Positions 8,655 to 30,630 of a stretch of 64,000 nucleotides of DNA are shown here, piece by piece. Numbering within the stretch: position 1 is the first letter of the stretch; the number at the start of each line of letters is the position of its first letter. The DNA is from Candidatus Woesearchaeota archaeon (GTDB taxonomy: Archaea; Nanobdellota; Nanobdellia; Woesearchaeales; UBA525). Made by a program: the position numbers and the translations under genes. The notes below the pieces were generated by a model. That model searched no databases and was not told the DNA's origin. It was given only the letters and a program-made list of their open reading frames with translations. The stretch is taken from the NCBI GenBank assembly GCA_027371725.1, contig DAHXMN010000001.1:400-64399 (forward strand). Reading direction: 5' to 3'.

Positions 8655-8727
8655 AGCCCCGTAGTGTAGCGGCCAATCATTCAGCCCTCTGGAGGCTGAG
8701 ACCTCGGTTCGAATCCGGGCGGGGCTA
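8655..8727 (+). tRNA. tRNA-Gln(CTG), intron-less; the target of the integrated element
   Basis: Acceptor AGCCCCG/CGGGGCT plus A. Anticodon stem CAGCC/GGCTG with loop CT-CTG-GA. T-arm CTCGG-TTCGAAT-CCGGG. Confidence 0.8.
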
Positions 8728-8731
8728 TTAT
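8715..8731. repeat. attL: 17-bp core CCGGGCGGGGCTATTAT overlapping the tRNA-Gln(CTG) 3' end
   Basis: An identical 17-mer recurs at 30614..30630, and a 14/17 degenerate copy at 36044..36060. Confidence 0.8.
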
Positions 8732-8904: not shown

Positions 8905-8909
8905 GCCTC

Positions 8910-10767: not shown

Positions 10768-11808
10768 TTATCTTGTTTTAATCTCTCCAATCGTGACAAT
10801 TTCAGGATTTAGTTCTTTGATTGTCTCGGCGATGTCTTTGAGAGTGTTTTTGACAAGATCGCCAGTATTGTTCTTTGCAGTGACTTTATCCATTTCTTGT
10901 TCGAGAACTTTCTCGGATGCTGATTTTCCCACTATGCTCTTTATTTTTTCTAAATCTTTTTCACGGTCATCTAATATATCTGCGAATTTAAGCATCTTTG
11001 CCTGTAGTTTAATTATCTCCGACGGTGTTTTCTTTATTTCGTGAGCATAGTCCTTCGCATCTAGGTCGATTGTCTTCGCGTATAACCTGAATGCATCGGC
11101 CATCTCTTTATAATTTTCTACACCGACGGTGATTGACCCGCCGAAGTATGAAAGTTTCGCAACAATTGTCTTTTTCAGTTCATTCTCGAATGCTTCTTTC
11201 TCCTCGGTCCCTAAGGATGTTTTTTCGGAGAGGTTCTGAAGTGATATGCCGAGTAAAATCGGATTTTCTGTCGTGAAGGTCAACGTTTTCTGTCTTCCAT
11301 CAACAGCAATTCTCACCGAATCGCTGAACGGCTCTATGCTAAGGAGCTTTTTGTAGGAATAGTTATAGCTCTTGAATTGACCAGCATAGATAACTCTTTT
11401 TGAGGTTATATACAAGATTCCTGAGTCGATTTTGCGGAGTTCACCATGTGATTCAGCTTGACCGGAACCCATGTTGAACCACCAGCCCTTTGCAATTCTG
11501 ATACTGTGCCCAGTCCTGACATAATTTCTTATCGCGCGCTCTTCATAGAGGCTTGAAGGTTGGGCATACGTGATAATCTCATCTTTAGGGAGAATCAGCT
11601 TTGCTCGAGCATTCTTGACGTCTTCCTTCATTTCAATATACTTCTCGAATTGCATCACCGGCGATTCTTTCTTTTTTGAGTTGATTGCCCAGCTAACCAA
11701 GTAAATGATAAGACAGATGATGCCTATTGGCCATAAAACAATCAAAAGAATAATGATAAGTATTCTGAGCCAGATATTCAGCCCATCAAACCACGACTTG
11801 AAGGACAT
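10768..11808 (-). CDS. membrane-anchored hypothetical protein
   Basis: N-terminal TM (ILIIILLIVLWPIGIICLIIYLVSWAI) followed by a soluble domain. AT-rich codon usage like the rest of the element. Confidence 0.55.
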   Translation of the reverse strand: MSFKSWFDGLNIWLRILIIILLIVLWPIGIICLIIYLVSWAINSKKKESPVMQFEKYIEMKEDVKNARAKLILPKDEIITYAQPSSLYEERAIRNYVRTGHSIRIAKGWWFNMGSGQAESHGELRKIDSGILYITSKRVIYAGQFKSYNYSYKKLLSIEPFSDSVRIAVDGRQKTLTFTTENPILLGISLQNLSEKTSLGTEEKEAFENELKKTIVAKLSYFGGSITVGVENYKEMADAFRLYAKTIDLDAKDYAHEIKKTPSEIIKLQAKMLKFADILDDREKDLEKIKSIVGKSASEKVLEQEMDKVTAKNNTGDLVKNTLKDIAETIKELNPEIVTIGEIKTR

Positions 11809-11826: not shown

Positions 11827-12597
11827 TTATTTATAAAACATTTTCTTTTTTGTCATTTTCAGCATCTTTTTGCTCTGTTTTCTTATGGTGACCTCTATCA
11901 CGCCAGTCGTGTTTGCCACCTGTCTCTGTGTTCTCAATTCGCTGTTCTCCTTCGCTGCGAGGTAGAGGGCTGCCGCTACGATGGTCTCGGGGCGTTGTCC
12001 CCTACTCTTTTGCCGCTCTACAATCTCGGCGGCCCGGCTGATGGTCTCTGCTTTGAGTTCAAGGCGTGAGCCGAAGCGCTGGACGAGATCTACGGGCTTA
12101 ATCGGGCTCAAGCGCAGGCCGAGCCCCCTAGTGAGGAGTCTGTAGGCTCTGAGCATCTTCGTCTTGCTGACGCTGCTGTAGGCCGTAATCTCCAGCGGTG
12201 TCTTGGGGATGTCGTGGAGGAGACAGGCGGCGTAGACGCTCGCGTAGAGGAGGCTCTGGTTGTCCCGTCCCCGATTGAGGCCTTTCTCGGCTGCTTGGGT
12301 GAAGATGAGGAAGGACTCGGTGGTAATCCGGTCTGGGAGCTTGAGCTTGCCCGTCAGGAGGCTAATCTGTGCCTTGGCGGCCTGGAGGTTCTTCTGCTTC
12401 GTGCTGAAGAGCCAGGCGGTTTTGACAATCCTGCCATCGTATTGGAACGTTCCGGCTGTCGCTACAGCGGGCTGCGCAGGGCGGTTTATTTCGCCTTGGT
12501 GCTCGGTTGGGCTGTCTTCGGTGATGAGGCCGCAGGCTATGCAGACGACCTCGTATCCGGCTTCTTTGAGGGTTCCGCCGCATTCAGGGCATCTCAT
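11827..12597 (-). CDS. tfb: transcription factor B (TFIIB) homologue encoded on the element
   Basis: N-terminal Zn ribbon MRCPECGG...VVCIACG, two cyclin-like repeats, and C-terminal HTH RTQRQVANTTGVIEVTIRK as in TFB. Confidence 0.75.
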   Translation of the reverse strand: MRCPECGGTLKEAGYEVVCIACGLITEDSPTEHQGEINRPAQPAVATAGTFQYDGRIVKTAWLFSTKQKNLQAAKAQISLLTGKLKLPDRITTESFLIFTQAAEKGLNRGRDNQSLLYASVYAACLLHDIPKTPLEITAYSSVSKTKMLRAYRLLTRGLGLRLSPIKPVDLVQRFGSRLELKAETISRAAEIVERQKSRGQRPETIVAAALYLAAKENSELRTQRQVANTTGVIEVTIRKQSKKMLKMTKKKMFYK

Positions 12598-12896
12598 GAT
12601 TCCACCTCCTCCGTGAAGTACAGGAGCACTGGCATGATCTTCTTTTCGTGGAGTTCCTTGACCCTTGCCAGTGCCTGTTCGACGCTGAGGCAGAGCTCCA
12701 TCTTGTAGCCTACCGGCTTGTCCCCTTCGAAAAGGTTCCTGATGGGCTTCTTCAGGTCTATTCTTCGTCTTCTATCGTTGTAGAAGACCTTGCCAGCGAC
12801 GCTGATAATTTTATCCTGCGTGGTGACTGGCTGCTGCATACAACACCCCCTTTGGCTTGTTGCTGTTGTTGCACTCCCAGCCGAATCAGAATTCAC
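12594..12896 (-). CDS. hypothetical small protein (start uncertain; could begin at MQQPVTT)
   Basis: ATGA overlap with tfb. No recognisable domain. Confidence 0.4.
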   Translation of the reverse strand: MNSDSAGSATTATSQRGCCMQQPVTTQDKIISVAGKVFYNDRRRRIDLKKPIRNLFEGDKPVGYKMELCLSVEQALARVKELHEKKIMPVLLYFTEEVES

Positions 12897-13356: not shown

Positions 13357-16305
13357 TTACCGGGAGGTTTGGGTCCTAATGAACTCCTGGAGTTCGGTGC
13401 GGACGAGGAGGCGGACGCCCGGAGCGATGCGCTCGTAGTGCGGTCTGAAATCGCTGTCCGCGAGGATGATGACGAGTCGCTTCCCGTATTGGTTCTTGAG
13501 TTCTGCGAACTTCTTTTCAAGTCGAGATTTGTGCTTCTTGAATCCGAGACCAGTTTCTACCTCTACCGCGATCTCTTTTCCGGCCTTGTTCTTGAAGAGC
13601 AGGTCGACTTTGTCAGTCACGCTCACGTCAACTGCAAGCCCGCGTTTCATGAGTTCGTCTTTGAGGTTTAGAACGATGAACGTATGCTCTGGGCTCTCAA
13701 TGTTGTTGTCCTTAATCCAGCATTCTTCCTGGCGCGGCTTCCCAATCGGCATGAACATTCCTGGCGAGTAGCCTTGATTGGTGAGGAAATTCTTCTCATC
13801 TATGGTGAGATCTGCACCGTAGTAGAGCCCTTGCTTCGGATCAAGGGTGATGTTGACCTCGCGCCGCTCATCGGGAACGACTTTGCTCTCAGATTCGTTC
13901 GGGTTCGTGGTGACCAGAAGGTGCTCTTTCTCGGATGCGATGACGGTGAGTTCCTGGTGGTCGTTGTCCAGAATCAAGATGCCCCTGCCTTGCGTGGCGG
14001 TAAGGAGGTATTCGCGTTCCGGGTTGCTCAGATGGAACGTTCTGACGACCGAATCGATGATCGCGGCTTTCTGGCGGAGGAGGAAGCTGTAGCTGCTGTT
14101 CGCAAGGACTGCGTGTCCCGCGCCGCTGTTGATGAGGTCAGCCACATCCTGCGTGATGAGCAGGAGGCCCATGTTGAACTTTCGGCACGTCTTGACAATC
14201 TCGAAGAGGTAGCTCGCTTCTTCTGTGTGGCTGAGGAGGCTCCACGCTTCGTCCACCACCAGGAGTTTTTTGCCGGGGCGGCGCTTCATGGTCATGTAGG
14301 CGTAGTCCAGGATGAGGAACATGACGACGGGCTTGACTTGCTTGGGCATATCCCCTATGTTGAAGCAGACGAAGTCCTTGCCGTAGTTGATGTTGCTCTG
14401 CTTGTTCAGGAAGCCGAAGACACCCTCGGTGTAGAGGTAGAGGCGGTTGATGAGCGCCCGGTACGTGACCTTCTCAGACTGCGCCGCCTGGGAGTCCATG
14501 CTCACGAGAGTGTGGTACAGGTCGCCCAGGATTGGCGGCTTCTTGTTCTTGTACACGTCAGCCGTGATGCCCTTCTTGGCGTAGGTGACGTTGACTGCCC
14601 GGTCCAGGATGCTCTTCTGGATCTCGCTGAGCTCGCCGAACATGATTCGGAACAAGTCCATGAGCGCCAGGCGTTTTTCGACGTAATCGTGGCCCATGAG
14701 GTCGAGGGGGTTGATGATGGTCGCGCTGGTTCGGCTTATGGTGACGTGCTCGCCGCCACAGGCCTGGACGAGCCCTGCATACTCGCCTTGCGGGTCCACG
14801 ACCGTGACGCACGTGCCGTTCATGAGCTGGCGGCTGATCATGAGCTTGGTGAAGTAGCTCTTTCCTGCACCACTGGTGGCGAGGACGATGCCGTTCGCGT
14901 TGCTCAGGCTGAATAGGTCCTTGATGTAGGGCACCCCGTTCTTGTTCAGGCCGAGGAGGGTTCCGGTCTCCTCCATGGTGAGGAAGGGGCTGGTGCATGG
15001 GAAGAACGCGCTCAGAGCCCCGGTGGTGACGTTGCGTTTGAGGCCGAGCCAATCCTTGCCCAGGGGCATCATGGCTTTGTACGCCGCTGCCTGGCGAAAC
15101 AGGGGCGTTGTCGGGATAATCATGATGCTCTGGAGCTCTGCCTCTACTTTGCGGGTCAGGAGGTCCAGGTCGGCCTTATTCGCGGCTTTACACGCGATTA
15201 AGAGGCTGACATTGAAGAGCTTCTCCTCGCCCTTCTGGAGCGCCTCGAGGACCTTGAGGGTGTCCTTGTACTTAATCTCCAGGGAGGGGTTGACGCTGTG
15301 GTGCTGTTCCTCCGCATACAGGTCGGCTCGTTGCTTCTGGAGCTCCCGGTTCAGGAGGACCATCGTTGATTCGATGGTGAATGGCTCAATCTGGATGCTC
15401 AGGTCGTAGTTCTCATTGCTGCTGATGAGCTTGTCCAGGAAGCCACTTTCCACGAGGCGCGGGTACCCGTCAGCCGCGATGACCCTGATGAGCTGGCCGT
15501 CGACTTGGAGGTGGTCGATGTTGTCCCTGACCCTGCCTGGCGCCAGGAGGTAGTGGAGGCCGGAAACCCCGATCGGAGGCTCCCGGTCCGACGCCCGGTA
15601 GTATCGCTTGAGCATCTCCAGTAGCGCCTTGTCGTTCAGCCGGACGGCGTGCAGGCCGAGCCCTTTGAGTCGGTCAAGGCAGACCCTGCATTGGATGTCC
15701 AAGCTGCTCCGTTCCGGGATGATGAGGTAGAACTCCCGGTTGCGTTGCGTCGCCATCCGGCTCTTCGTGAACGCGGCGAACTCGTCATAGAGCGTCTCGT
15801 TCTTCGTCCGTTTCTTGAGGCTCTCCAGGTAGGGTTCGAGACTGAGCTCTTGCGTCGTCACGATGAACTGGACGGGGAACTCGAGGCTATTCAGGAACTT
15901 CTGGAACCCGATGATAATCGACTCCTGTTCTTCATTCGTTTTGATCCCGAAGTTCAAGGGCGTAATCCGAAGCAGGGCGACCTTCTCTTCGGAGACGATG
16001 GTGTTGTTCTCAATCTTCTTGACCGGGACGAGGCGCTCCATCCGCTTCGTGCCGAGACGGGACTCGCGGAACTGGAGGTATCGGGAGGCGTTCCGCAGCC
16101 AGATGCCGAGGTCGAAGAAGATGAACATCATTCCCAGGACGAAGGGGATGATGGCGAGGCAGAGCTTCAGGTCCATGCTCAGATTGCTCGTCAGGACCAT
16201 CAGGGTGAGGGTGCCGAAGAGGGCTGCCCAGCCGAGTTGGACGAAGGTCAAGCCGAACATGATGCGCTCTTTGTGCTGGAGTTGCTGGGGAATTTCGTAG
16301 GCCAT
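13357..16305 (-). CDS. VirB4/TrbE/TraC-like conjugation ATPase (AAA-like, DUF87-type) with N-terminal TM segments and a C-terminal nuclease-like domain
   Basis: 982 aa. Walker A TSGAGKSYFTKLM, Walker B LLVVDEAWSLL and N-terminal hydrophobic helices. Confidence 0.7.
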   Translation of the reverse strand: MAYEIPQQLQHKERIMFGLTFVQLGWAALFGTLTLMVLTSNLSMDLKLCLAIIPFVLGMMFIFFDLGIWLRNASRYLQFRESRLGTKRMERLVPVKKIENNTIVSEEKVALLRITPLNFGIKTNEEQESIIIGFQKFLNSLEFPVQFIVTTQELSLEPYLESLKKRTKNETLYDEFAAFTKSRMATQRNREFYLIIPERSSLDIQCRVCLDRLKGLGLHAVRLNDKALLEMLKRYYRASDREPPIGVSGLHYLLAPGRVRDNIDHLQVDGQLIRVIAADGYPRLVESGFLDKLISSNENYDLSIQIEPFTIESTMVLLNRELQKQRADLYAEEQHHSVNPSLEIKYKDTLKVLEALQKGEEKLFNVSLLIACKAANKADLDLLTRKVEAELQSIMIIPTTPLFRQAAAYKAMMPLGKDWLGLKRNVTTGALSAFFPCTSPFLTMEETGTLLGLNKNGVPYIKDLFSLSNANGIVLATSGAGKSYFTKLMISRQLMNGTCVTVVDPQGEYAGLVQACGGEHVTISRTSATIINPLDLMGHDYVEKRLALMDLFRIMFGELSEIQKSILDRAVNVTYAKKGITADVYKNKKPPILGDLYHTLVSMDSQAAQSEKVTYRALINRLYLYTEGVFGFLNKQSNINYGKDFVCFNIGDMPKQVKPVVMFLILDYAYMTMKRRPGKKLLVVDEAWSLLSHTEEASYLFEIVKTCRKFNMGLLLITQDVADLINSGAGHAVLANSSYSFLLRQKAAIIDSVVRTFHLSNPEREYLLTATQGRGILILDNDHQELTVIASEKEHLLVTTNPNESESKVVPDERREVNITLDPKQGLYYGADLTIDEKNFLTNQGYSPGMFMPIGKPRQEECWIKDNNIESPEHTFIVLNLKDELMKRGLAVDVSVTDKVDLLFKNKAGKEIAVEVETGLGFKKHKSRLEKKFAELKNQYGKRLVIILADSDFRPHYERIAPGVRLLVRTELQEFIRTQTSR

Positions 16306-16306
16306 G

Positions 16307-18331
16307 TTACATCATCGCTCCAATGTATTTTGCCGCTTGCATCATGCTCTGGGCCCCGTCGCTCATTCCGGACTTGGTCACGATGTGCTTGGCGAGCAGG
16401 AGGAATAGGAGGTCGATCATGAGGAAGCAGGTGATCATGACGACGATCTTGTACCCGGCAAAGAGGGGTAGGCTAATCATCTGGCTGCAGCCGAGGATGA
16501 TGACTGCGTCCAGGAACGTGACGAAGATGCACAGCCCCAGGAGATTCATGATGAGGTGGCCGTAGCTCCGTAGCGGTGGCATGAAGTAGCAGAACACCCC
16601 GATGGGTGCGAAGAGGACGCCGAACGCCACGATGAGGTAGCGCATGGCCAGGAAGAGCATCGTCACCAGCAAGACCAAGGCATACAGCCCGACCAGGAGG
16701 AGTTCCAAGCCGATGTTGCTGATGTTGTCCGCTGTCAGGAGGAAGAACTGCGGATTGACCAGGCTGAGAACTGCCTGGGTCATGAGGCCGCCGATATCGA
16801 CGATGAGTCCGTAGAGGTAGTAGCTGGCTTGGACGAGGACGATCATGATGACGGTGTTTTTGAGCCATTCCTTGGCCATTTCCCGCTTCAGGACGTTGTG
16901 GCCGCTGGTGAGGAACTGGTACCCGGCATAGAGGAACAGGAACCCGTAGAAGAGGCTCAGGCAGTAGACGATGATTACCCAGACGCCCTGGAAGAGGCTG
17001 ATGCTCGGGGAGGCCTCCAATAAGTCCTTTACGAGGCTCAGAAGCGGCTCCAGCGGGGCGTTGATGATGCTCAGGAGGAAGCTGTAGAGCGCCCCTGGGA
17101 GGCAACTGCCGAGGTTTGTGAGGCCACAATCCTCCGCCCGGACCATCGGCAAGGCCAAGAGGACGCCGAGGCCGATTCCGGGGAGCTTCCGCCAGTACTT
17201 ACGGGAAACCCGGTACGCGGCGACCAGGATGCCCGCGATGACGGCCATTTTGAGGATGAAGACCCAATCTACGGTGACGCTGGGCGGGGTGAACGCCGCG
17301 CTGGGAGGGGCTGAGAGGTTCTGGGCGCAGGGCTTGGTCTGGTTCGTGAAGAAGTCCTCAGCCCTGACCGTGCAGTTTGAGGCATTCGGCACGAAGAACG
17401 TCCCGTTGTACCAGCGGAGGTTCTGCGCCGTTTGGACCTCGAGCTTCTCCGCGTGAAGCTCCAGGAGGTAGAAGGGCTTCTTCGTGAAGTTCGCCGTGTA
17501 CACCCATTCCGTGGCGGAGTAGTTGCTTTGCCCCATGCTGAGCCAGACGCTCGTATTCGCATCATGGACCAGGAACGCCTTCGTAGTGCCCGAGTAGTTC
17601 GTGGCTAGGGTGAATGTGGCGTTCAGGGCGTGGCGGTCATACGTCGTGTTGAGGCTGTCGTTCAGGAGGAGGGTGTCCGTCGTGTAGTTTGTCTTGGTCT
17701 TTGGGCAGCGCCAGCAGTACCGGACGCAGACGCCGTTCCGGGTTCGACAGCAGTACTTCTGCCAGGTGTAGTAGTCGTTCTTGATTGTGGCACGGATGCT
17801 CAACTCCTCTCTGATATTCGCGTCAAAGATCAGGATGTTGATCGGGACGACTTTTCCGGTGCCCATCGTGATGTTGTTCGCCTTCGTTGTGAGGGTGCTC
17901 GTGTTCTCGGTGAGGTAGTGGAGTATCTTGCACGTTGCCCCATTGCTCTGCGAAGGATTAGTGTAATTTGCTGGCACCTTGATCCAGTAGCTCGCCTCGG
18001 AACGGACGGCCACCTTGGCCGGACAGTAGCGAGTCTTGTTGAGCAGGACGCTCGGCTGGATTGTCAAGAGGGCGACCCAGGCATCCATGATGACACCCTT
18101 CTGAATTTTAGTATAACCGAACGGCGCATTGTTGACGACGATGCCCTGATTGTAGGCGGCGATGGCTGCGTGGTCCGGGTGACTCGTGTTCGTGTAGATT
18201 AGGTTGGCGATGAGGTCTTCATTCACCGTCAAAGCGGCGAGGCAGTTCGTCTGGTTCTGGAAGTAGCTGCAGTTGAAGGCAGCGGTAGCTGGGACGAAAG
18301 CGAGAAATAAAAGGAGAAAAAGAGGTTTCAT
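16307..18331 (-). CDS. large polytopic membrane protein with a signal peptide and a heavily N-glycosylated ectodomain (VirB6/TrbL-like candidate)
   Basis: 674 aa. Signal MKPLFLLLFLAFVPATAA. About 25 N-x-S/T sequons in the first 350 aa. At least 6 C-terminal TM helices. Confidence 0.6.
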   Translation of the reverse strand: MKPLFLLLFLAFVPATAAFNCSYFQNQTNCLAALTVNEDLIANLIYTNTSHPDHAAIAAYNQGIVVNNAPFGYTKIQKGVIMDAWVALLTIQPSVLLNKTRYCPAKVAVRSEASYWIKVPANYTNPSQSNGATCKILHYLTENTSTLTTKANNITMGTGKVVPINILIFDANIREELSIRATIKNDYYTWQKYCCRTRNGVCVRYCWRCPKTKTNYTTDTLLLNDSLNTTYDRHALNATFTLATNYSGTTKAFLVHDANTSVWLSMGQSNYSATEWVYTANFTKKPFYLLELHAEKLEVQTAQNLRWYNGTFFVPNASNCTVRAEDFFTNQTKPCAQNLSAPPSAAFTPPSVTVDWVFILKMAVIAGILVAAYRVSRKYWRKLPGIGLGVLLALPMVRAEDCGLTNLGSCLPGALYSFLLSIINAPLEPLLSLVKDLLEASPSISLFQGVWVIIVYCLSLFYGFLFLYAGYQFLTSGHNVLKREMAKEWLKNTVIMIVLVQASYYLYGLIVDIGGLMTQAVLSLVNPQFFLLTADNISNIGLELLLVGLYALVLLVTMLFLAMRYLIVAFGVLFAPIGVFCYFMPPLRSYGHLIMNLLGLCIFVTFLDAVIILGCSQMISLPLFAGYKIVVMITCFLMIDLLFLLLAKHIVTKSGMSDGAQSMMQAAKYIGAMM

Positions 18332-18660
18332 CCGACCAGGTATTGCACGACGAGCGGTGCAACCCAGATGATGATGAGGCCCACCACGATGTACCCCGCC
18401 ATGGTCTTGGCGGACTCGCGTTTGGCCGTGTCGTCGCCGCTCATGATGAACGTGACACCCGCAAAGACGAGGAACAGCACGGCAAGGACCGTGGCCGCGT
18501 ACTTCACGAAGTTGTACACCTTCATCACAGGGCTCAATATCTGGTCGAACGTCGCTTGGTCCTGGGGCGAGATCGTCTGATTGAACTCGACCGCCATGAC
18601 GAGCGGCGTGATGCTCAGGAAGAGCATCACCAACAGCAAGGCAGTTTTCATTCTTGGCAC
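18328..18660 (-). CDS. pilin-like small membrane protein (VirB2/TrbC-like candidate)
   Basis: 110 aa with a signal peptide plus two hydrophobic helices. Overlaps the upstream gene (ATGA). Confidence 0.5.
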   Translation of the reverse strand: MPRMKTALLLVMLFLSITPLVMAVEFNQTISPQDQATFDQILSPVMKVYNFVKYAATVLAVLFLVFAGVTFIMSGDDTAKRESAKTMAGYIVVGLIIIWVAPLVVQYLVG

Positions 18661-18838
18661 CTCCGCGCTTCGAATGCCTCGAGACTACCGTACTTCCACT
18701 CGATGAAGGTGCGGCACGACTCGCACAGCTCCTCCTCGGGTGTGTCCTTCAGGCATAAGACGCAAATCATGCTAGAACAAGGCGCCTGAAAAGCCTAGAA
18801 AGGATGTCGGAGAACGTATTACATCGTTTGATGTTAGC

Positions 18839-20533
18839 TCATCTTGTGAGCTTAGCTATGAGATTCACAGAATATAATGCCAGAAGATGACGCAAGGGAA
18901 CGCCCCCTCGGGGAGGTTCTCCGCGATCAAACTGTATGTGATTGCCAAGGGGCAATATCACTGCTCCATATTTTTGTTCGGGGAAGTGTTTGTCGACTAG
19001 AGATTTGACCTTCGACAATGCTTCTCTCGGCGTGAAGTGTTGAGAATCTGGCTTAACCAAACAATATTGTTCCTGAAATTTCATCGCTGTAGGTATTCGT
19101 CCTGAGAATGTCCTCTCTACTTGCACCATAAATTCGTTCAGTTTTTCTTCATCCACATCCTTCAGGACTGCCTTGATTTGACTCTGAGTAGGAAGCGCTT
19201 TTTTCATACTGTCTTTTCCTGTTGCATGATGTATGCTCGCTTCCCATCTTATCTTCTTGTTCTGTTTATTCAGTGAGTTAGTGAGCTCGACTCTATAGTT
19301 CCCTTGCTTCAAGTCGGGTACAATCTCTGCAAATGTTGAGTAGATATCACGATTTCGTGATTTCTTAAGAGATGGCTGCTTTTCTCTGAGATTCGCAATT
19401 AGTTTCTCTTTCTCGGGCCGGTGTATAAATGCCTCTGAAGGTGTTCGTTTTTTATGCTCGATAAGTATTGCTCTGGCAAAAGCAGCCGACATCTTTGGGC
19501 ACACCGCATTTCCGACTAGCCGATACTTAGTCGATTCATTGCTTCCTTGAAAGAGATATGTGAGAGGAAACGACATTAAAGCGGCAACTTCTCGAATAGT
19601 TGGCGATCGATATATTTCTGGATGACCATTACGAAGAATCATTGATTCTCTCGACACTACCGATTTGGTCGCCATTACAGTCCTACTCGGTTTTGATTCG
19701 TCTTCTGGGAAGCTCATCCGACCATAGTATCTTGCTTGAAGCTTCTTGTTTCTTGCGTCTTCCCACTCGAAACGAGGTATCGTGGTGTCATAGAAATGAT
19801 CTGTAATCTGGATATTGGAGATAAGGATGCCGTAATTTGGATCTTTAATCTGCGACGCGGTTGAACGTAGGGCATCGAGCACATGTCCAAGAGTGACCCA
19901 GTCCTCTTGCGTCGGAGTCGTCGGGGTTGGTTTGATGAACTGACCACAAATGAATCGCTCTCTTCGTTGAGGAACTCCGAAGTGAACTGCGTTATGGACA
20001 TTCTCAAGAGATTTATCGATTCTCAAAGCAACGTCATTCTCGCTAAAATCAATTTTTAGGGCGCGAAGAGTCTTGTTGTCCAGCCCTAGCATCTTGAATG
20101 TGTACTCATCTTTGACATAATTGCGAGAATTTGGCACGTTCTCCATCAACCAATACTTCAATCGAGAGCCTTTCTTGTGCTTCTTAAGAGCGACAATCTG
20201 CAGATACTTCTCTATTAGTTGTATGCCAATCGTTTTGTTGGCGTTGCCTGCACGGTTTGATCCTGAAAATGCTACGCAAGGAGGACTGCCGACTATGACA
20301 TCAACATCGGGAATCATATCATGGGCGATGATTTGTTCAGGACTAAGTTCGAGTACGTCTGTGAGAAGTGTTTGCGCTCCCGGATGATTAAGCTTGAATG
20401 TATTTATGGCTGGTTTCCAATAATCCAGACCAAACTTCACTTCGAAGCCCATCTGTCTGAATCCCTCTGAGAAACCGCCCGCCCCGCAGAAGAAGTCGGC
20501 AACCGTCAGTTTATCTTCGGTCCTTTGCACCAT
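18839..20533 (-). CDS. DNA (cytosine-5)-methyltransferase with a roughly 200-aa C-terminal extension
   Basis: Motif I FCGAGGFSEGF, motif IV GSPPCVAFSGSN and motif VI LMENVPN. Confidence 0.85.
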   Translation of the reverse strand: MVQRTEDKLTVADFFCGAGGFSEGFRQMGFEVKFGLDYWKPAINTFKLNHPGAQTLLTDVLELSPEQIIAHDMIPDVDVIVGSPPCVAFSGSNRAGNANKTIGIQLIEKYLQIVALKKHKKGSRLKYWLMENVPNSRNYVKDEYTFKMLGLDNKTLRALKIDFSENDVALRIDKSLENVHNAVHFGVPQRRERFICGQFIKPTPTTPTQEDWVTLGHVLDALRSTASQIKDPNYGILISNIQITDHFYDTTIPRFEWEDARNKKLQARYYGRMSFPEDESKPSRTVMATKSVVSRESMILRNGHPEIYRSPTIREVAALMSFPLTYLFQGSNESTKYRLVGNAVCPKMSAAFARAILIEHKKRTPSEAFIHRPEKEKLIANLREKQPSLKKSRNRDIYSTFAEIVPDLKQGNYRVELTNSLNKQNKKIRWEASIHHATGKDSMKKALPTQSQIKAVLKDVDEEKLNEFMVQVERTFSGRIPTAMKFQEQYCLVKPDSQHFTPREALSKVKSLVDKHFPEQKYGAVILPLGNHIQFDRGEPPRGGVPLRHLLALYSVNLIAKLTR

Positions 20534-20651
20534 TCTGATCCACTAATTCTTAAACGATCTCCTAATCCCTTTATTTAAATGTTGTCACAGTCGATTCATT
20601 TTTAAAGATGCTGAGAATCAGAAGCCGCATCTGACGCAAGTGTTTGGACGC

Positions 20652-21563
20652 TTATTTCCAGTGCTTTTTGATATAGGCTGTTGCTTCTTTCGTGTTAAGT
20701 TGCTGAGTGGAATTGCCCGTACGTATGAAGAAGTGGGTGGTATCTTTGTTCTCGACATACACTGGTTCGGACGCTTTTTTGACTTGTACTGATGCGACTT
20801 TCTTCCCGTCATAATCTTCAAATGATGTCGAGATAAGCTGTGCATGCTCTTTACCAATATAGTTGCTGACGATTTCCCCTATTTTTAGCTGGAAACCATC
20901 CTCGTTCTGCTTTTTCAAGAGAGAGATGTCCTTTTCCAGTCCCAAGATATTCTTGTCATCATCTATCCCGATTATTAGTCTTCCACCGTCAGCATTCATG
21001 AACCCGGCGATGGTCTTCGCAATGGAGACAATCAAATCCTTGTTCGGTTTGTTTTGTTTATAGTCCCATTCTATAGACGATTTGAATTCGACTGTCTCAT
21101 CCTCGCGTAATGCTTCGAGGCCGGTTTTCTTCTCTCGAATCATTTCTCCTGCGAGTTTTGATGCTTCATTCATCTTTTGTTCCAGAAGAAGCATGAAATT
21201 CTCAGATGTTCTGTACTCCTCGATGAGTAGCTGTAACTCACTCAGGCCAGCTATGGAGTATTCCTCCGCAATCTTCTTGACCTCATTCATGTCCTTAAGG
21301 ATGAGCATATCGCCCGTCTCAGCGACCGCAATTGAGGTAATTAACCAGAGATCCGCGTCAGAAAAACTGTCTGTATTCAGCAAAGGATAGCGTTTGATTT
21401 CTTTTCGTTTCAGTCTCTTCACAAATGCAAGAGACATGCAAAGCATGAAAATGTGCTTTGCTTTCATATTCTGGAAGATGAATCCTTGCTCAAGGTCGTC
21501 GTATATCTTACGAGCGTCCCTGGTTATGTTCAGGTTCCTTCCAAAAAGTTCTCTTAGTTCCAA
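20652..21563 (-). CDS. AlbA_2 (Schlafen-like) domain protein with a DndE-like N-terminal region
   Basis: The C-terminal half (...ADGGRLIIGIDDDKN...FFIRTGNSTQ) is an AlbA_2 core. The N-terminal half (ITRDARKIYDDL...HIFMLCMSL) resembles, from memory, the DndE pattern (TGLxPNLLCRIGFCxSL). Overlaps the SMC-like gene. Confidence 0.5.
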   Translation of the reverse strand: MELRELFGRNLNITRDARKIYDDLEQGFIFQNMKAKHIFMLCMSLAFVKRLKRKEIKRYPLLNTDSFSDADLWLITSIAVAETGDMLILKDMNEVKKIAEEYSIAGLSELQLLIEEYRTSENFMLLLEQKMNEASKLAGEMIREKKTGLEALREDETVEFKSSIEWDYKQNKPNKDLIVSIAKTIAGFMNADGGRLIIGIDDDKNILGLEKDISLLKKQNEDGFQLKIGEIVSNYIGKEHAQLISTSFEDYDGKKVASVQVKKASEPVYVENKDTTHFFIRTGNSTQQLNTKEATAYIKKHWK

Positions 21564-23545
21564 CTCCGCACCTCAGTCACACCATGGCTCATCACGAAAC
21601 GAGATTCCTGAGCTATACGCTTAGAAAGCAAGTCTCTGATTGTGGCAGTATATTCCTGATCCTTCATCAGAAGGACAACCTGTGTTCCTTTGAGATAGTC
21701 TGGCAACTTCCGCGCCACATTCTCTCTTTGTTCATTATCTATGTTTGCTAGGGGCGTGTCGATGAATACTGGGAACTTGAATCCGGAGACCTCGCTCAAA
21801 GCAGCAATGAATGACAACAATAGGAGCTGTTTCGGACCACTTGCGAGATTGTGCATCCAGTTTGTTCCTTTGCCGTCGGTAAGTCTGAGGTCATAATCAT
21901 GATTGATTGTGAACTCAGTATATTTCTCTTTGTCCCAATGGAGTGTTTTGAAGTATTCCCATGTCTTCTCTTGCACTTGTTCTCTGACTTCCTGTAGAAT
22001 CTCTACCTCAATTTTATTCAGTGCATTTGATGCGCGATCAATAAACTCAGCGGTGACCTTCTTTCTTTCTCCGCCTTTCTTCTTCACACCTTCTTGATTG
22101 AGACTTTGTCGTAGTTGACTCAGTTGTCCAGTTCGTAGATTTATGGCGGCAGTCAATCTCGAGACGGAAGCTATTTGAGACTCTCTGTTTGTCATAAGAG
22201 ACTCGCGTTGATTTGTCTGTTGAATTATGTCGTCTTCTTTAGTGTCCTTAAGATTCTTTGATATTTCTTGAAGATCTTTATCGTGCTTTTTATTAAGTTC
22301 CACTAGTTTTTCGAGTTTCTTGTTCAGAGTGGCTATCTCGTTGAGTGATTGAGGGATTTCGCGCTCTAGAATATCGGTGATTCTGAATTTACCTTCTGAA
22401 AGCGTGGCCTTGAATTCATTGAAATTATTCTCTCTAATCTTTTCTTTTAAGAGAGTCACACATTCTTGGTCGTGAGTAGTGTTGAGCGTCCTCCCGCAGA
22501 CGCATTTCTTTTGTCGCAACAGTTCTTCAAGATATTTGTTGTCGATATTTGGCTGGAACTTATCCCTCTCTAATTCAGCATTTATTAGATTGATAAAGTT
22601 CTGCAACGCACCAGATGCGATGGCCAGAGGAGCGGATGATATGGCAATCGTTCTCAACTGTTTCTTGATTTGATCTATTTCTTGGTTATTGGAAGCAATC
22701 TTTTCACGGATATCGCGTTCTTGTCTCGCCCATTCTCGTATGAGTGGGATGTTATAGTCAGAGAGGAACTTCTCGATTCTGTCAATCTCCTCCTTTGCTT
22801 TGGCGATTTCTCCTTTTCGAGTTTCAATAGCTTCCGTATTTCTCGCTATATACTCCTCCGCCTCTTCAATCTCATGGTTCAATTTCGCCATTCCTGCATC
22901 GTATTCGTCGTCTTTATCGGAGGTCCATATCTGATCTCGGACTTTCTGGAGATGCTCTATCGCCAGCTTGACCTGTTTGATTTGAGAGGTTCTTTCGATT
23001 GCTTGGCGGATGTTCTCGTTGTTATTGAATGAGAAGTGCTTTTCGAGCTTCTCACCTTCAAACATGAAAAAGAGGTGGATTTCCCTCGGCAATATGCTGT
23101 TTATTACATTAGTAAAATTATACTCGGGAACGGGTCTACAGTCGTTCTTTTCCCATTCCATTATTGAGCCGGTCGGCTCTTTTAAGATGTGCATCTTGTT
23201 ATTGAGCTTCTGGTACATTGCATCCCGTTTAATCACATAAATGGGCAAATCCGTTTCATCGTCGTTCAAGGTGATTTCAACATAGACGCTATCAATCTCC
23301 TTCTCCTTCATATCGTGTTGTCTGGCGACAGTAAATGCGGGCAAAGTGTGGTCATGACCTGAACTGGTCTCCTCACCATACAAACACCAAGCAATAGCTG
23401 AGAGGAAAGTGGTCTTACCAACGTCAGATTTAGCTTCAATCACAGAAAACTTGTTTTTTGCCTCTTTCTTGAACGTTACAACTATTGGCTTCTCCGGATT
23501 GCTGAACGGACGGAAGTTCTTGAGTTTGATTTCAGAGATCCACAT
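21554..23545 (-). CDS. DndD/SbcC/SMC-like coiled-coil ATPase
   Basis: 663 aa. N-terminal Walker A KSDVGKTTFLSAIAWCLYGE, a long coiled-coil middle, and a C-terminal ABC-type signature/Walker B region ...FPVFIDTPLANID. Confidence 0.7.
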   Translation of the reverse strand: MWISEIKLKNFRPFSNPEKPIVVTFKKEAKNKFSVIEAKSDVGKTTFLSAIAWCLYGEETSSGHDHTLPAFTVARQHDMKEKEIDSVYVEITLNDDETDLPIYVIKRDAMYQKLNNKMHILKEPTGSIMEWEKNDCRPVPEYNFTNVINSILPREIHLFFMFEGEKLEKHFSFNNNENIRQAIERTSQIKQVKLAIEHLQKVRDQIWTSDKDDEYDAGMAKLNHEIEEAEEYIARNTEAIETRKGEIAKAKEEIDRIEKFLSDYNIPLIREWARQERDIREKIASNNQEIDQIKKQLRTIAISSAPLAIASGALQNFINLINAELERDKFQPNIDNKYLEELLRQKKCVCGRTLNTTHDQECVTLLKEKIRENNFNEFKATLSEGKFRITDILEREIPQSLNEIATLNKKLEKLVELNKKHDKDLQEISKNLKDTKEDDIIQQTNQRESLMTNRESQIASVSRLTAAINLRTGQLSQLRQSLNQEGVKKKGGERKKVTAEFIDRASNALNKIEVEILQEVREQVQEKTWEYFKTLHWDKEKYTEFTINHDYDLRLTDGKGTNWMHNLASGPKQLLLLSFIAALSEVSGFKFPVFIDTPLANIDNEQRENVARKLPDYLKGTQVVLLMKDQEYTATIRDLLSKRIAQESRFVMSHGVTEVRSWN

Positions 23546-23732
23546 CTTTGTGCTCCTTCTGGCTGTATCCGTCCGCCCACTGTTTGTAGGAGTCGGTGTA
23601 TCTTCCTTTGGCCGCCGAGAGGTTCTTTAATTCATTCTCAAGAACATCGAGCAGAAACGATTTCAAATGCTCGCTTTCGTCTAATTCGGAGATTTTCCTT
23701 GTGATTATCTTATTCAGTTCTGATCGTCTCAT
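23532..23732 (-). CDS. small helical protein (66 aa) embedded in the operon
   Basis: Its start overlaps the helicase stop (ATGA at 23729-23732) and its 3' end overlaps the SMC start. Confidence 0.45.
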   Translation of the reverse strand: MRRSELNKIITRKISELDESEHLKSFLLDVLENELKNLSAAKGRYTDSYKQWADGYSQKEHKDVDL

Positions 23733-26736: not shown

Positions 26737-26748
26737 GTCATTCACCCC

Positions 26749-30474: not shown

Positions 30475-30630
30475 CATTCTCCGAGGCAAGCTAACAAACA
30501 ATCGCAGACATTCTCATGGCATGAACGAGAATTTTATAAACCGCATCACACCCATTCACACTAGCACGCTGGAGGACTGGTGGAGTCCTCTCGATACCGG
30601 GAACGGCTCACCGCCGGGCGGGGCTATTAT
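30475..30630. repeat. element right-end repeat A (about 155 bp) ending in the attR 17-mer (30614..30630)
   Basis: About 75% identical to 35900..36060. Contains catgaacgagaattttataaa, atcacacccattca and gagtcctctcgatac blocks. Confidence 0.7.

What the first reader, a model, noticed from the sequence alone, without database searches (positions are those of the whole stretch)
13357..18660. Conjugation-like module: VirB4-like ATPase, hyper-glycosylated polytopic membrane protein and pilin-like protein
Three overlapping minus-strand genes are present. The 982-aa ATPase has N-terminal TM helices and Walker A/B. The 674-aa protein has a signal peptide, about 25 N-glycosylation sequons in the ectodomain and at least 6 TM helices. 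The 110-aa protein has a signal peptide plus two hydrophobic helices, like VirB2-type pilins. Together with the integrase this suggests an integrative conjugative element of archaeal type.
Basis: partly seen in the sequence, partly recalled or inferred. Interest (0 to 1): 0.6.

Follow-up and report, generated by a model that had tools for sequence, protein, structure and literature searches.

The report
Minimal archaeal conjugation-type module with nuclease-fused VirB4
A 22-kb mobile element inserted in a tRNA gene of a DPANN (Woesearchaeota-like) archaeon carries a stripped-down conjugation-type secretion machine (pilin, membrane channel, motor ATPase) with no recognisable relaxase or coupling protein, but whose motor is fused to a conserved nuclease-like domain that may cut the DNA to be transferred.

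Summary
The 982-aa protein is a VirB3–VirB4 fusion ATPase (NCBIfam VirB4 models E≈1e-90; CedB 1e-9; HerA 1e-3). The 110-aa protein is a VirB2/T4SS pilin. The helical half of the 674-aa protein matches VirB6/TrwI by fold. The genes lie on a 21.9-kb element bounded by exact 17-nt repeats (tRNA-Gln 3' end, 8715 and 30614) next to a tyrosine integrase. The host is Woesearchaeota-like, and the same gene order recurs in about 80 DPANN loci, often beside tRNA plus integrase.

New points:
- VirB4 carries a conserved ~180-aa C-terminal domain. It is confidently modelled as a PD-(D/E)xK nuclease fold with six near-invariant residues (E, H, D, ExE, K).
- No VirD4, relaxase or Rep is found in the element or in any related locus.
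- An uncalled 40-aa zinc-ribbon ORF, translationally coupled to the pilin gene, is conserved in 50 of 68 loci.
- The sequon-rich β-ectodomain is an N-terminal add-on to VirB6. Its heavy sequon load (20 vs 5.5 expected) is lineage-specific.

Verdict: a new variant of a known kind (archaeal MPF-FATA-like integrative element). Function is inferred, not shown.

The parts
8655..8727 (+). tRNA-Gln(CUG), the integration target. Its last 13 nt belong to the 17-nt att core at 8715-8731 (attL).
   Evidence: ARAGORN; Rfam 54.7 bits; exact repeat
8910..10253 (-). Tyrosine recombinase (integrase), 447 aa
   Evidence: Pfam Phage_integrase E = 1.3e-4, below the gathering cut-off. Homologues in 18 related loci. 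R223, R334-H335 and H364-Y365/366 are conserved. The homologues lie 90-250 nt from a tRNA gene in at least 10 loci.
10768..11808 (-). 346-aa protein with an N-terminal TM helix and a coiled-coil tail; function unknown; not conserved in related loci
11827..12597 (-). TFB/TFIIB paralogue (Zn ribbon plus cyclin repeats), the likely element-specific transcription factor
   Evidence: Pfam TFIIB E = 5e-30; found downstream of VirB4 in 17-20 related loci
12594..12896 (-). Small protein (about 81-100 aa) that overlaps the TFB start by 4 nt; a conserved partner of TFB; no known domain
13360..13908 (-). C-terminal domain of VirB4 (residues 800-982): a small beta/alpha subdomain followed by a PD-(D/E)xK nuclease-like core. 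H874, D901, E915, E917 and K932 are invariant in 40 homologues; a glutamate four residues upstream of H874 is nearly invariant.
   Evidence: Alignments. AF2 pLDDT 89.8 with an alpha-beta-beta-beta-alpha-beta core. Foldseek top hits are NucS/EndoMS, YaeQ, Can2, Mus81, Ecl18kI and DdmD. The six residues are 94-100% conserved in 144 cluster representatives.
13921..16035 (-). VirB4 N-domain plus P-loop ATPase (residues about 91-795); Walker A at 14857-14880
16081..16305 (-). VirB3/PrgI-like two-TM N-terminus fused to VirB4 (residues 1-75)
   Evidence: Pfam PrgI E = 1.4e-3 in the window protein, but matched in 36 of 40 family members (best E = 3.7e-6); TM helices
16310..17296 (-). VirB6/TrbL-like polytopic membrane core (residues 346-674). 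It includes a pilin-like hairpin at residues 449-501.
   Evidence: Foldseek to TrwI/VirB6: 8rtd_L probability 0.99, 8rt9_F 0.96, 7o3v_F/G 0.85. Pfam T4SS_pilin E = 7.6e-4 at 449-501. This is the only part conserved in the distant Pacearchaeota loci.
17297..18274 (-). Extracellular all-beta, Cys-rich, sequon-rich ectodomain (residues 20-345), preceded by a signal peptide (18275-18331)
   Evidence: AF2 pLDDT about 90. 20 sequons vs 5.5 expected. 10-11 cysteines in most family members. No convincing fold match.
18328..18651 (-). VirB2/TrbC-type T4SS pilin (107 aa from ATG 18651; the ORF extends to GTG 18660)
   Evidence: Pfam T4SS_pilin E = 9e-12 and TrbC E = 1.5e-7; topology; SD-like sequence and start
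18648..18770 (-). Uncalled 40-aa zinc-ribbon mini-protein (CxxC...CxxC, then FIEWKYGSLE). Its stop codon overlaps the pilin ATG.
   Evidence: found at the same position in 50 of 68 loci by HMM; 0 hits for 20 shuffled queries; dN/dS 0.15
18839..26540 (-). Cargo: C5 DNA methyltransferase (18839-20533), Schlafen/AlbA_2 protein (20652-21563), PbeC (21554-23545), PbeA (23729-25873) and N4/N6 DNA methyltransferase (25806-26540)
27660..30469 (+). Divergent family-B DNA polymerase (27660-29831) and SRAP/YedK protein (29810-30469), both inside the att-bracketed element; absent from related loci
30614..30630 (+). attR: exact 17-nt copy of CCGGGCGGGGCTATTAT
   Evidence: 0.02 expected by chance at up to 2 mismatches

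Best explanation
The finding is the core of a minimal, conjugation-type (type IV secretion, MPF-FATA-related) apparatus. It is carried by a 21.9-kb element (window 8715-30630) integrated into tRNA-Gln of a Woesearchaeota-like DPANN archaeon.

Shown:
- One tightly packed operon encodes a 40-aa Zn-ribbon protein, a VirB2-type pilin, a VirB6-like channel protein and a VirB3-VirB4 fusion ATPase.
- A TFB paralogue with a small partner protein lies downstream.
- A tyrosine integrase lies at the tRNA-proximal end.
- The rest of the element is cargo: a Pbe defence module and DNA methyltransferases.

Inferred mechanism:
- The element's TFB drives transcription of the module.
- The pilin is exported by Sec, its signal peptide is cleaved, and it is extracted from the membrane into a conjugative-type pilus.
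- The VirB6-like bundle forms the membrane channel or platform. Its added, probably glycosylated, disulfide-rich beta-ectodomain is exposed on the cell surface, where it could act in contact or recognition.
- The membrane-tethered VirB4 hexamer powers pilus assembly and substrate translocation.
- No relaxase and no VirD4 coupling protein exist in this element family. The conserved C-terminal PD-(D/E)xK-like domain of VirB4 is therefore proposed to bind and nick or cut the DNA substrate at the channel entrance, so that DNA processing and translocation reside in one polypeptide.
- The integrase excises and re-integrates the element at the 17-nt att site.

The direction of transfer (export or import) is not determined.

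The confidence of 0.6 is for the whole statement. Taken separately: about 0.9 that this is a T4SS-type module on an integrated mobile element, about 0.6 that it moves DNA, and about 0.35 that the C-terminal domain is the DNA-processing nuclease.
For: - VirB4 identity: NCBIfam E = 7e-92 and 1.9e-89, against CedB 1e-9 and HerA 1.6e-3; PDB 4ag5 E = 1.5e-30. In the family, TraC_F_IV matches 39/40 members and PrgI 36/40.
- Pilin: both Pfam pilin models score above their gathering cut-offs.
- VirB6: Foldseek probability 0.85-0.99 to TrwI.
- Synteny: pilin, VirB6-like and VirB4 occur in the same order in most of 85 loci (pilin in 76, VirB4 in 68). The Zn-ribbon ORF is present in 50 of 68 loci.
- Element: exact 17-nt att repeats, lower G+C than the flanks, an integrase next to a tRNA here and in at least 10 related loci, and several copies on a single contig.
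- A close relative has only about 1.1 kb between tRNA-Gln(UUG) and the ATPase gene, with no T4SS trio.
- Nuclease-like domain: AF2 pLDDT 89.8 with an alpha-beta-beta-beta-alpha-beta core and D at the start of beta2 and ExE in beta3. The top Foldseek hits are nearly all PD-(D/E)xK nucleases. Six residues are 94-100% conserved across 144 representatives.
- No VirD4, relaxase or Rep family appears among the recurrent neighbours.
- Purifying selection acts on every gene and domain.
- Literature: archaeal ICEs and plasmids lack relaxases and associate with TFIIB (PMC6563490, PMC5797428). VirB2/VirB6/VirB4 trios are sufficient for DNA transfer in Ced/Ted (PMC9905601).
Against: - There is no experimental evidence for pili, DNA transfer or nuclease activity.
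- No sequence-level hit links the C-terminal domain to a named nuclease family.
- The motif is PD...ExE plus a distal K, not the canonical ExK. From my own knowledge, BamHI uses D94/E111/E113, so an ExE site can be active.
- Stand-alone homologues of the domain are membrane-anchored but sit outside T4SS loci in the two contexts examined.
- Typical archaeal ICEs and Sulfolobus plasmids carry VirD4; this family does not.
- The host is probably an episymbiont, for which a T4SS could serve host interaction rather than self-transfer.
- The relative's locus is not a clean empty site.
Confidence: 0.6

Rival explanations
1. The module is a DNA-import (Ced/Ted-like) apparatus rather than a donor-side conjugation machine. 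The pilus and channel take up DNA from neighbouring or host cells, and the VirB4-fused nuclease degrades one strand or trims incoming DNA, as membrane nucleases do in bacterial competence.
For: It has the same three-component architecture (VirB2 + VirB6 + VirB4) as Ced/Ted, which import DNA (PMC9905601). It has no relaxase and no VirD4. The nuclease-like domain also exists as a membrane-anchored stand-alone protein, reminiscent of uptake nucleases. DPANN archaea have reduced genomes and may scavenge nucleic acids (general knowledge).
Against: CedB and CedD models score only 37 and 28 bits against cut-offs of 700 and 600, whereas bacterial conjugative VirB4 models score about 300 bits. Ced/Ted are chromosomal, domesticated systems, while this module travels with integrases, att sites and variable cargo. 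That is what a self-transmissible element would look like.
Confidence: 0.2
2. The module is a symbiont-host interaction device of DPANN archaea. It would be an adhesive pilus and channel used to attach to the host cell and to exchange proteins, nucleic acids or metabolites with it. It would be carried on mobile islands but would not be used for the element's own transfer.
For: The host marker is Woesearchaeota-like. The module is very widespread in DPANN MAGs, sometimes in several copies per genome. The VirB6-like protein carries a large surface ectodomain that diverges faster than the membrane core (39% vs 56% mean identity). Analogous proposals exist for Patescibacteria T4SS without relaxases (PMC12102498) and for nanohaloarchaeal VirB4-containing giant proteins (PMC10266531).
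Against: A conserved nuclease-like, DNA-oriented domain on the motor points to a DNA substrate. The ectodomain is missing in the Pacearchaeota-type versions, so it is not essential to the core function. The tight association with integrase plus tRNA and with R-M/defence cargo is typical of self-mobile elements.
Confidence: 0.15
3. The ATPase is a viral or plasmid FtsK/HerA-type DNA-packaging ATPase and the region is a provirus, not a secretion system.
For: Pfam DUF87 (HerA central domain) matches at E = 2.5e-11. The element also encodes a family-B DNA polymerase.
Against: DUF87 is the P-loop shared with VirB4. VirB4-specific models score about 300 bits, against 17 bits for HerA. The VirB4 N-domain and the VirB3-like TM segment are present. 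The neighbours are a pilin and a VirB6-like protein. There is no capsid, portal or terminase in the element.
Confidence: 0.02
4. The module is a decaying, non-functional remnant of a conjugative element that has lost its VirD4 and relaxase.
For: VirD4 and relaxase are absent. A degenerate tandem element lies next door at 30631-36055.
Against: All ORFs are intact and the catalytic motifs are invariant. dN/dS is 0.02-0.15 for every gene and domain. The same VirD4-less architecture is conserved across about 80 divergent loci, which decay would not produce.
Confidence: 0.03

Closest known systems
MPF-FATA type IV secretion/conjugation systems of monoderm bacteria (Mycoplasma ICE Mbov_0397-type and Clostridioides CD1110-type VirB4; Enterococcus pCF10 PrgI/PrgJ/PrgH)
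   Same: The best-scoring VirB4 models are the Mycoplasma and CD1110 types (about 300 bits). It shares the PrgI/VirB3-like TM segment, a small pilin-like protein related to the Mbov_0395 family, and a polytopic VirB6-like partner.
   Different: The scores are below both equivalog cut-offs (590 and 325 bits). VirB3 is fused to VirB4. VirB4 has an extra ~180-aa nuclease-like C-terminal domain, which is not covered by the bacterial models: they end at residues 781-784. There is no VirD4, relaxase, VirB8-like protein or cell-wall hydrolase. Transcription uses an archaeal TFB.
Archaeal integrative-conjugative elements and conjugative plasmids (thaumarchaeal ICEs; Sulfolobus pNOB8-type plasmids)
   Same: The element is tRNA-integrated with att direct repeats and a tyrosine integrase. 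It has VirB4, VirB6-like and VirB2-like proteins and an element-encoded TFIIB homologue. It has no relaxase (PMC6563490, PMC5797428).
   Different: Those elements are 40-65 kb and usually encode a VirB4/VirD4 pair, ParB and other components. This one is 22 kb with no VirD4 and no ParB, lives in DPANN hosts, and carries the nuclease-fused VirB4, the Zn-ribbon mini-protein and the ectodomain-bearing VirB6.
Ced (Sulfolobales) and Ted (Thermoproteales) DNA-import systems
   Same: It has the same minimal trio, VirB2-like pilin + VirB6-like channel + VirB4-like ATPase. It also shows the pilin-like segment at the start of the VirB6-like core, as reported for CedA/CedA1 (PMC9905601).
   Different: It is not orthologous: CedB scores 37 bits against a 700-bit cut-off. 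Ced/Ted are chromosomal and domesticated, and Ted loci co-occur with HerA/Rad50. This module is carried on an integrase-bearing element, and its nuclease is part of the ATPase itself.
PD-(D/E)xK nucleases (NucS/EndoMS, Hjc, Can2/Card1 nuclease domain, Mus81, BamHI-like ExE variants)
   Same: The predicted core is alpha-beta-beta-beta-alpha-beta, with an acidic residue at the start of beta2 and an ExE pair in beta3, plus a conserved Lys in the next helix. The best structural neighbours are NucS/EndoMS and other members of the superfamily.
   Different: There is no detectable sequence similarity to any named family. The motif is ExE instead of ExK. The domain is fused to a T4SS motor, or tethered to the membrane by two TM helices. 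Activity is untested.

Membership tests
VirB4/TraC/TrbE T4SS ATPase | VirB4/TraG-type P-loop domain with intact Walker A and B motifs | tested here: met
   PF19044 E = 6.3e-27; 4ag5 E = 1.5e-30; G479/G481/K482/S483 and D685/E686 invariant
VirB4/TraC/TrbE T4SS ATPase | VirB4-specific N-terminal domain (TraC_F_IV / CagE_TrbE_VirB) | tested here: met
   TraC_F_IV E = 3.6e-6 in the window protein (just below the gathering cut-off) and matched in 39/40 family members; CagE_TrbE_VirB in 15/40
VirB4/TraC/TrbE T4SS ATPase | Scores better with VirB4 models than with HerA/FtsK/CedB models | tested here: met
   309 and 301 bits against 37 (CedB), 28 (CedD) and 17 (HerA)
NCBIfam equivalogs VirB4_plasma (NF045975) and conju_CD1110 (NF045971) | Score at or above the curated cut-off | tested here: not met
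   308.6 < 590 and 300.9 < 325. It is related to these bacterial subfamilies but is not a member of them.
VirB2/TrbC T4SS pilin | About 100 aa, cleavable signal peptide, two hydrophobic helices, Pfam model above gathering | tested here: met
   T4SS_pilin 45.3 bits (cut-off 26.6), TrbC 31.9 bits (cut-off 27.9); topology
VirB2/TrbC T4SS pilin | Polymerises into a lipid-containing conjugative pilus | not testable with these tools
   Needs cryo-EM of filaments
VirB6/TrbL channel protein | Polytopic (at least 5 TM helices) protein encoded next to VirB2 and VirB4 | tested here: met
VirB6/TrbL channel protein | Structural or profile similarity to bona fide VirB6 | tested here: inconclusive
   Foldseek probability 0.99, 0.96 and 0.85 to TrwI/VirB6, but E = 1e-2 to 1e-1 and TMt 0.33-0.39. 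Precomputed Pfam TrbL_3 hits are listed for about 10 family members but were not reproduced by my own hmmscan at E <= 0.1. There is no sequence-level PDB hit.
Integrative conjugative element (bacterial definition) | Integrase plus att sites that bracket the element | tested here: met
Integrative conjugative element (bacterial definition) | Relaxase (MOB) and type IV coupling protein (VirD4/TraG/TcpA) | tested here: not met
   Neither is present among the element's proteins or among the recurrent families of 81 related loci. Weak TrwB_AAD_bind/T4SS-DNA_transf hits fall within VirB4 itself.
Archaeal ICE (thaumarchaeal/Sulfolobus type) | VirB4 + VirD4 pair, VirB6, TFIIB; relaxase absent | tested here: inconclusive
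   VirB4, VirB6-like protein and TFIIB are present and a relaxase is absent, as in those elements. VirD4 is absent.
Ced/Ted DNA import systems | CedB/CedA/CedA1 orthology | tested here: not met
   CedB scores 37 bits against a cut-off of 700. No NCBIfam Ced-component model matched the pilin or the membrane protein at E <= 0.01.
PD-(D/E)xK nuclease superfamily (VirB4 C-terminal domain) | alpha-beta-beta-beta-alpha-beta core with acidic residues on beta2 and beta3 | tested here: met
   AF2 secondary-structure order, with D901 at the start of beta2 and E915/E917 in beta3; the structural neighbours are nucleases of this fold
PD-(D/E)xK nuclease superfamily (VirB4 C-terminal domain) | Canonical (D/E)xK lysine | tested here: not met
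   The motif is ExE (E915-V-E917). A conserved K932 lies in the following helix.
PD-(D/E)xK nuclease superfamily (VirB4 C-terminal domain) | Metal-dependent nuclease activity | not testable with these tools
   Needs biochemistry
Fusexin / class II fusogen (considered for the ectodomain) | Three-domain beta-rich class II fold | tested here: not met
   No HAP2/Fsx1 or class II hit with meaningful probability in PDB or BFVD

The most novel reading that the evidence does not exclude
The PD-(D/E)xK-like domain fused to VirB4 (and, in other genomes, tethered to the membrane on its own) is the DNA-processing enzyme of a relaxase-less and coupling-protein-less archaeal conjugation system. A single polypeptide would recognise and cut the DNA and pump it through a VirB6 channel. 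If so, DPANN archaea would carry the simplest known self-transmissible DNA-transfer machine: four small-to-large proteins plus a dedicated TFB. It would also answer how archaeal conjugation generates its substrate.
Probability: 0.3. Interest if true: 0.8.

Novelty: new variant of a known kind. Interest (0 to 1): 0.55.

Why it matters
How archaea conjugate is still largely unknown. No relaxase has been found in any archaeal conjugative plasmid or ICE, and the source of the transferred DNA strand is an acknowledged open question (PMC9905601, PMC6563490).

This element family offers a concrete, testable candidate: a conserved nuclease-like domain built into the VirB4 motor, in a system that has also dispensed with VirD4.

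The family is abundant in DPANN archaea and carries restriction-modification and Pbe-type defence cargo. It is therefore probably a major route of gene flow, including defence-gene flow, in these ultrasmall, hard-to-culture organisms.

The module is very small: Zn-ribbon peptide, pilin, VirB6-like protein and VirB3-VirB4-nuclease. That makes it attractive for reconstitution and structural work.

Tried and rejected
- Sequence-level identification of the VirB4 C-terminal domain failed. Pfam gave nothing. A PDB profile search gave only chance hits to ubiquitin ('KTITLEVE') and a non-significant Cas4 hit (E = 1.1).
- Pfam TrbL_3 for the membrane protein is listed in precomputed tables but was not reproduced by hmmscan on six members. 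I treat it as weak.
- The fusexin or viral-fusogen idea for the beta-ectodomain, prompted by Fsx1 lying in archaeal mobile elements (PMC9259645), found no support in PDB or BFVD. The best BFVD hits (Bacillus phage G gp153 and others) have lengths and alignment spans that fit the helical half, though I did not check which region aligned.
- The search for VirD4, relaxase or Rep was negative: Pfam, NCBIfam and PADLOC on all element proteins, and all-vs-all clustering of 1,281 ORFs from 81 related loci.
- The empty-site test was only partly informative. A relative with 94% nt identity in the flanking ATPase gene has tRNA-Gln(UUG), a methyltransferase and the ATPase within about 1.2 kb and lacks the trio. 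However, the junction involves the other tRNA-Gln and an inverted methyltransferase segment, so it is not a precise empty site.
- oriT- or origin-like repeats in the two larger non-coding stretches (12897-13356, 26541-27659) yielded only short two-copy matches of no evident significance.
- The genomic context of stand-alone nuclease-domain proteins showed no T4SS genes nearby in the two places read.
- The look-up of encoding contigs had no record for the window's own protein. The organism name was not retrievable, so the host was inferred from deoxyhypusine synthase homologues.

Full report
OBSERVATION

The three minus-strand ORFs are present exactly where stated: 13357-16305 (982 aa), 16307-18331 (674 aa) and 18328-18660 (110 aa).

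- The ATPase has two N-terminal hydrophobic helices. Its Walker A (G479/G481/K482/S483) and Walker B (D685/E686) residues are invariant in 40 homologues.
- The 674-aa protein has a signal peptide and a hydrophobic anchor at 354-376, followed by about seven more helices.
- It has 21 N-x-S/T sequons, 20 of them in residues 1-345. Shuffling gives 5.5 +/- 2.0 (maximum 13 of 2000). The enrichment is real, though the count is 20-21 rather than 25.
- The small protein has a signal peptide plus two hydrophobic helices.

- Only the pilin and membrane genes overlap (ATGA). The membrane gene and the ATPase gene are 1 nt apart.
- The pilin most likely starts at ATG 18651 (107 aa), which has a GGAGGTG 7 nt upstream.

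IDENTITY OF THE PARTS

ATPase.
- NCBIfam VirB4 models of the monoderm (MPF-FATA) type give E = 7e-92 and 1.9e-89 over residues 24-784. F-type TraC gives 2e-46, VirB4_CagE 2e-30, CedB 1e-9 and HerA 1.6e-3.
- The only solved relative by sequence is the Thermoanaerobacter VirB4 C-terminal domain, 4ag5, at E = 1.5e-30.
- Across 40 family members, TraC_F_IV matches 39 and the VirB3-like PrgI family matches 36 at the N-terminal two-TM segment. The protein is therefore a VirB3-VirB4 fusion.

Pilin. Pfam T4SS_pilin (45.3 bits) and TrbC/VirB2 (31.9 bits) both exceed their gathering cut-offs.

Membrane protein.
- An AlphaFold2 model built on 40 homologues (pLDDT 77) has two parts: a confident all-beta ectodomain (residues about 76-334, pLDDT about 90) and a helical bundle (356-655).
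- Foldseek against the PDB matches the helical half to TrwI/VirB6 chains of the R388 T4SS (probability 0.99, 0.96 and 0.85; about 275 aligned columns; E = 1e-2 to 1e-1).
- The ectodomain has no convincing match in PDB or BFVD, and nothing resembles a class II fusogen.
- In the more distant Pacearchaeota-type loci only residues about 397-673 are conserved, as a protein of about 270 aa. The ectodomain is therefore an N-terminal addition to a VirB6-like core.
- It has 10-11 cysteines in most family members, and six ectodomain cysteine positions are invariant. Its sequon count ranges from 2 to 20 across the family, with only two positions widely shared. The heavy sequon load is peculiar to the window's lineage.
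- A pilin-like hairpin (T4SS_pilin E = 7.6e-4, residues 449-501) opens the VirB6-like core. This agrees with the CedA/CedA1 and VirB6/VirB2 relationship noted by Beltran et al. (PMC9905601).

THE UNEXPLAINED C-TERMINUS OF VirB4

The VirB4 models stop at about residue 785. The remaining ~190 residues have no Pfam hit, yet they are conserved: most of the listed homologues are 985-1050 aa long and cover the whole query. H874, D901 (in 'PDIIF'), E915, E917 (in 'IAIEVETG') and K932 are invariant.

- A model of residues 800-982 is confident (pLDDT 89.8). It shows a small beta/alpha subdomain followed by an alpha-beta-beta-beta-alpha-beta core. D901 sits at the start of beta2, E915-x-E917 lies in beta3 and K932 lies in the next helix. 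That is the layout of PD-(D/E)xK nucleases.
- A profile of the domain finds 647 cluster representatives among 1.84 billion proteins. They include about 1000-aa VirB4 fusions and many proteins of about 270-300 aa in which the domain follows two TM helices and a linker.
- Six residues (E, H, D, E, E, K) are 94-100% conserved in 132 short and 12 long representatives. This is the signature of an active site, not of a structural appendage.
- Against the closest relative, the domain evolves faster than the ATPase core (75% vs 97% identity) but is still under purifying selection (omega 0.14).
- ExE in place of ExK is known from BamHI (my own knowledge), so the variant motif does not argue against catalysis.

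CONTEXT: AN INTEGRATED ELEMENT IN A DPANN ARCHAEON

- The window is archaeal. It encodes TFIIB, deoxyhypusine synthase and an intron-containing tRNA.
- All named relatives of the chromosomal deoxyhypusine synthase are Woesearchaeota or Nanoarchaeota.
- tRNA-Gln(CUG) lies at 8655-8727. Its 3' end starts an exact 17-nt repeat (CCGGGCGGGGCTATTAT) found again at 30614-30630. About 0.02 such matches are expected by chance at up to 2 mismatches.
- A tyrosine recombinase lies beside attL, and G+C drops inside the element.
- A third, degenerate att with about 140 nt of conserved upstream sequence at 36046 indicates a second, decayed tandem element.
- Inside the 21.9-kb element, from attL to attR: integrase, two unknown membrane proteins, TFB with a small partner, VirB4, VirB6-like protein, pilin, a C5 methyltransferase, a Schlafen/AlbA_2 protein, PbeC (E = 2e-150), PbeA (E = 3e-218), an N4/N6 methyltransferase, a divergent PolB and an SRAP protein.
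- None of these is a VirD4 or a relaxase.

RELATED LOCI

The membrane-protein family retrieved 80 loci from species-representative genomes, mostly Woese-, Pace- and Nanoarchaeota. Several MAG labels ('Methanosarcinales', 'Bacteroidota', 'Cloacimonadota') look like mis-assignments.

- Of the 85 loci held at that stage, pilin, VirB6-like protein and VirB4 occur in that order and orientation wherever the flank allows: pilin in 76 and VirB4 in 68.
- The small-protein/TFB pair occurs in 17-20 loci and the window-type integrase in 18. A second family that looks like a tyrosine recombinase occurs in 10 more.
- In at least 10 loci the integrase sits 90-250 nt from a tRNA-Asp or tRNA-Glu gene, the same layout as in the window.
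- Single contigs carry two or three copies.
- Clustering 1,281 ORFs from 81 loci shows that the recurrent neighbours are DNA methyltransferases, HsdM/S/R, DUF2779, a reverse transcriptase and regulators. No VirD4, relaxase or Rep family appears.
- A close relative (94% nt identity over the flanking P-type ATPase gene) has only about 1.1 kb between tRNA-Gln(UUG) and that gene, without the trio. The island is therefore variable, although the junction is not a clean empty site.

A FOURTH COMPONENT

Reading the 178-nt 'spacer' upstream of the pilin revealed an uncalled 40-aa ORF (18648-18770, MICVLCLKDTPEEELCESCRTFIEWKYGSLEAFEARRCQE). Its stop codon overlaps the pilin ATG.

- tblastn finds it on the same strand just upstream of the pilin in 30 of 68 loci, with 0 hits for 20 shuffled queries.
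- A local HMM finds it in 50 of 68 loci, with 60 hits among 22,751 six-frame peptides.
- dN/dS is 0.15.
- It is a four-cysteine zinc ribbon followed by a conserved F-x-x-W-K-Y-G-S-L-E helix. Its function is unknown.

MECHANISM (INFERRED)

The module looks like the smallest conjugation-type T4SS described so far: pilin, VirB6 channel and a VirB3-VirB4 motor, with a dedicated TFB for expression. It is carried by a tRNA-integrating element.

There is no relaxase and no coupling protein anywhere in the family, and the motor carries a conserved nuclease-like, probably DNA-binding, domain. The most economical model is that VirB4 itself processes and feeds the DNA.

The alternatives are DNA import in the manner of Ced/Ted, or a role in symbiont-host interaction. 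Neither can be excluded, and the direction of transfer is open. A viral packaging role and simple decay are effectively excluded.

COMPARISON WITH KNOWN SYSTEMS AND NOVELTY

- Archaeal ICEs with VirB4, VirB6, VirB2-like pilin and TFIIB, and without a relaxase, are known from Thaumarchaeota (PMC6563490, PMC5797428).
- The VirB2/VirB6/VirB4 trio is known from Ced/Ted (PMC9905601).
- NCBI already labels some DPANN homologues 'VirB4 family'.

The general kind is therefore known.

In the searchable literature I found no description of this DPANN element family, of the nuclease-like domain fused to VirB4, of the Zn-ribbon mini-protein, or of the ectodomain-bearing VirB6.

I therefore rate it a new variant of a known kind, with moderate-to-good interest. 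It offers a testable candidate for the missing DNA-processing step of archaeal conjugation.

Noticed in passing
window 18648-18770 (-): An uncalled 40-aa zinc-ribbon mini-ORF (CxxC...CxxC, then FIEWKYGSLE) whose stop codon overlaps the pilin ATG. It is conserved at the same position in 50 of 68 related loci. It was not among the called genes in any of the related loci whose gene tables were shown (L001-L005, L090, L092).
   Followed up: yes
window 30631-36055: A second, decayed tandem element. A third, degenerate att copy (CCGGGCGGGG) lies at 36046. About 140 nt upstream of it is homologous to the right end of element 1 (30475-30613 vs 35904-36045). A small ORF at 30556-30822 is homologous to the sequence beside attL (8845-8906 vs 30700-30761, 82%).
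   Followed up: partly
window 20652-25873 (-): The cargo includes a Pbe-type defence module: PbeA (23729-25873, PADLOC E = 2.9e-218), PbeC (21554-23545, E = 2.2e-150) and a Schlafen/AlbA_2 protein (20652-21563) adjacent to PbeC. It is flanked by a C5 and an N4/N6 DNA methyltransferase. No dnd genes were seen in the window.
   Followed up: partly
window 27660-30469 (+): A divergent family-B DNA polymerase (only the polymerase domain, residues about 283-695, aligns to Thermococcales PolB, E about 1e-24; the N-terminal region is unmatched), followed by an overlapping SRAP/YedK gene. Both lie inside the att-bracketed element but are absent from all related loci. It could be a replication module or a separate insertion.
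   Followed up: partly
window 26435-26945 and 33051-33563: A 510-nt direct repeat (86-91% identity) that covers the 5' end and upstream region of the N4/N6 methyltransferase gene. A relative's contig (L091) carries the same segment, inverted, directly beside the P-type ATPase gene.
   Followed up: partly
window 683-783 (+): A second tRNA, tRNA-Gln(UUG) with an intron, found by Rfam (48.6 bits) but missed by ARAGORN. Its 3' end (CCGAGCGGGGCTATAAT) differs from the att core by 2 nt. The relative's island abuts the orthologue of this tRNA rather than tRNA-Gln(CUG).
   Followed up: partly
P0304, P0364, P0366, P0379, P0393 (loci L086-L089): Stand-alone versions of the VirB4 C-terminal nuclease-like domain: proteins of about 270-300 aa with two N-terminal TM helices, a linker and the same E/H/D/ExE/K signature. 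In the two contexts read they are not next to T4SS genes; one lies between alanyl-tRNA synthetase and an Nre-family gene.
   Followed up: partly
L074, L076, L082 (contig JAGVXH010000003.1); L064, L065 (JAIORZ010000011.1): Three and two copies, respectively, of the integrase-pilin-VirB6-VirB4 module on single DPANN contigs. This points to multiple related elements per genome.
   Followed up: no
L001/L006 (CAZRXH010000009.1) and many 'uncultured Methanosarcinales' MAG contigs: The taxonomic labels of several MAGs that carry the module (Bacteroidota, Cloacimonadota, Methanosarcinales) conflict with their archaeal, DPANN-like gene content (TFIIB, same module). They are probably mis-binned or mislabelled.
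   Followed up: no
window 13360-13908 vs 13921-16035: Between the window and its closest relative, the nuclease-like domain is only 75% identical while the ATPase core is 97% identical (dS 1.0 vs 0.5-0.75). This could reflect rapid specificity change or recombination within the gene.
   Followed up: no
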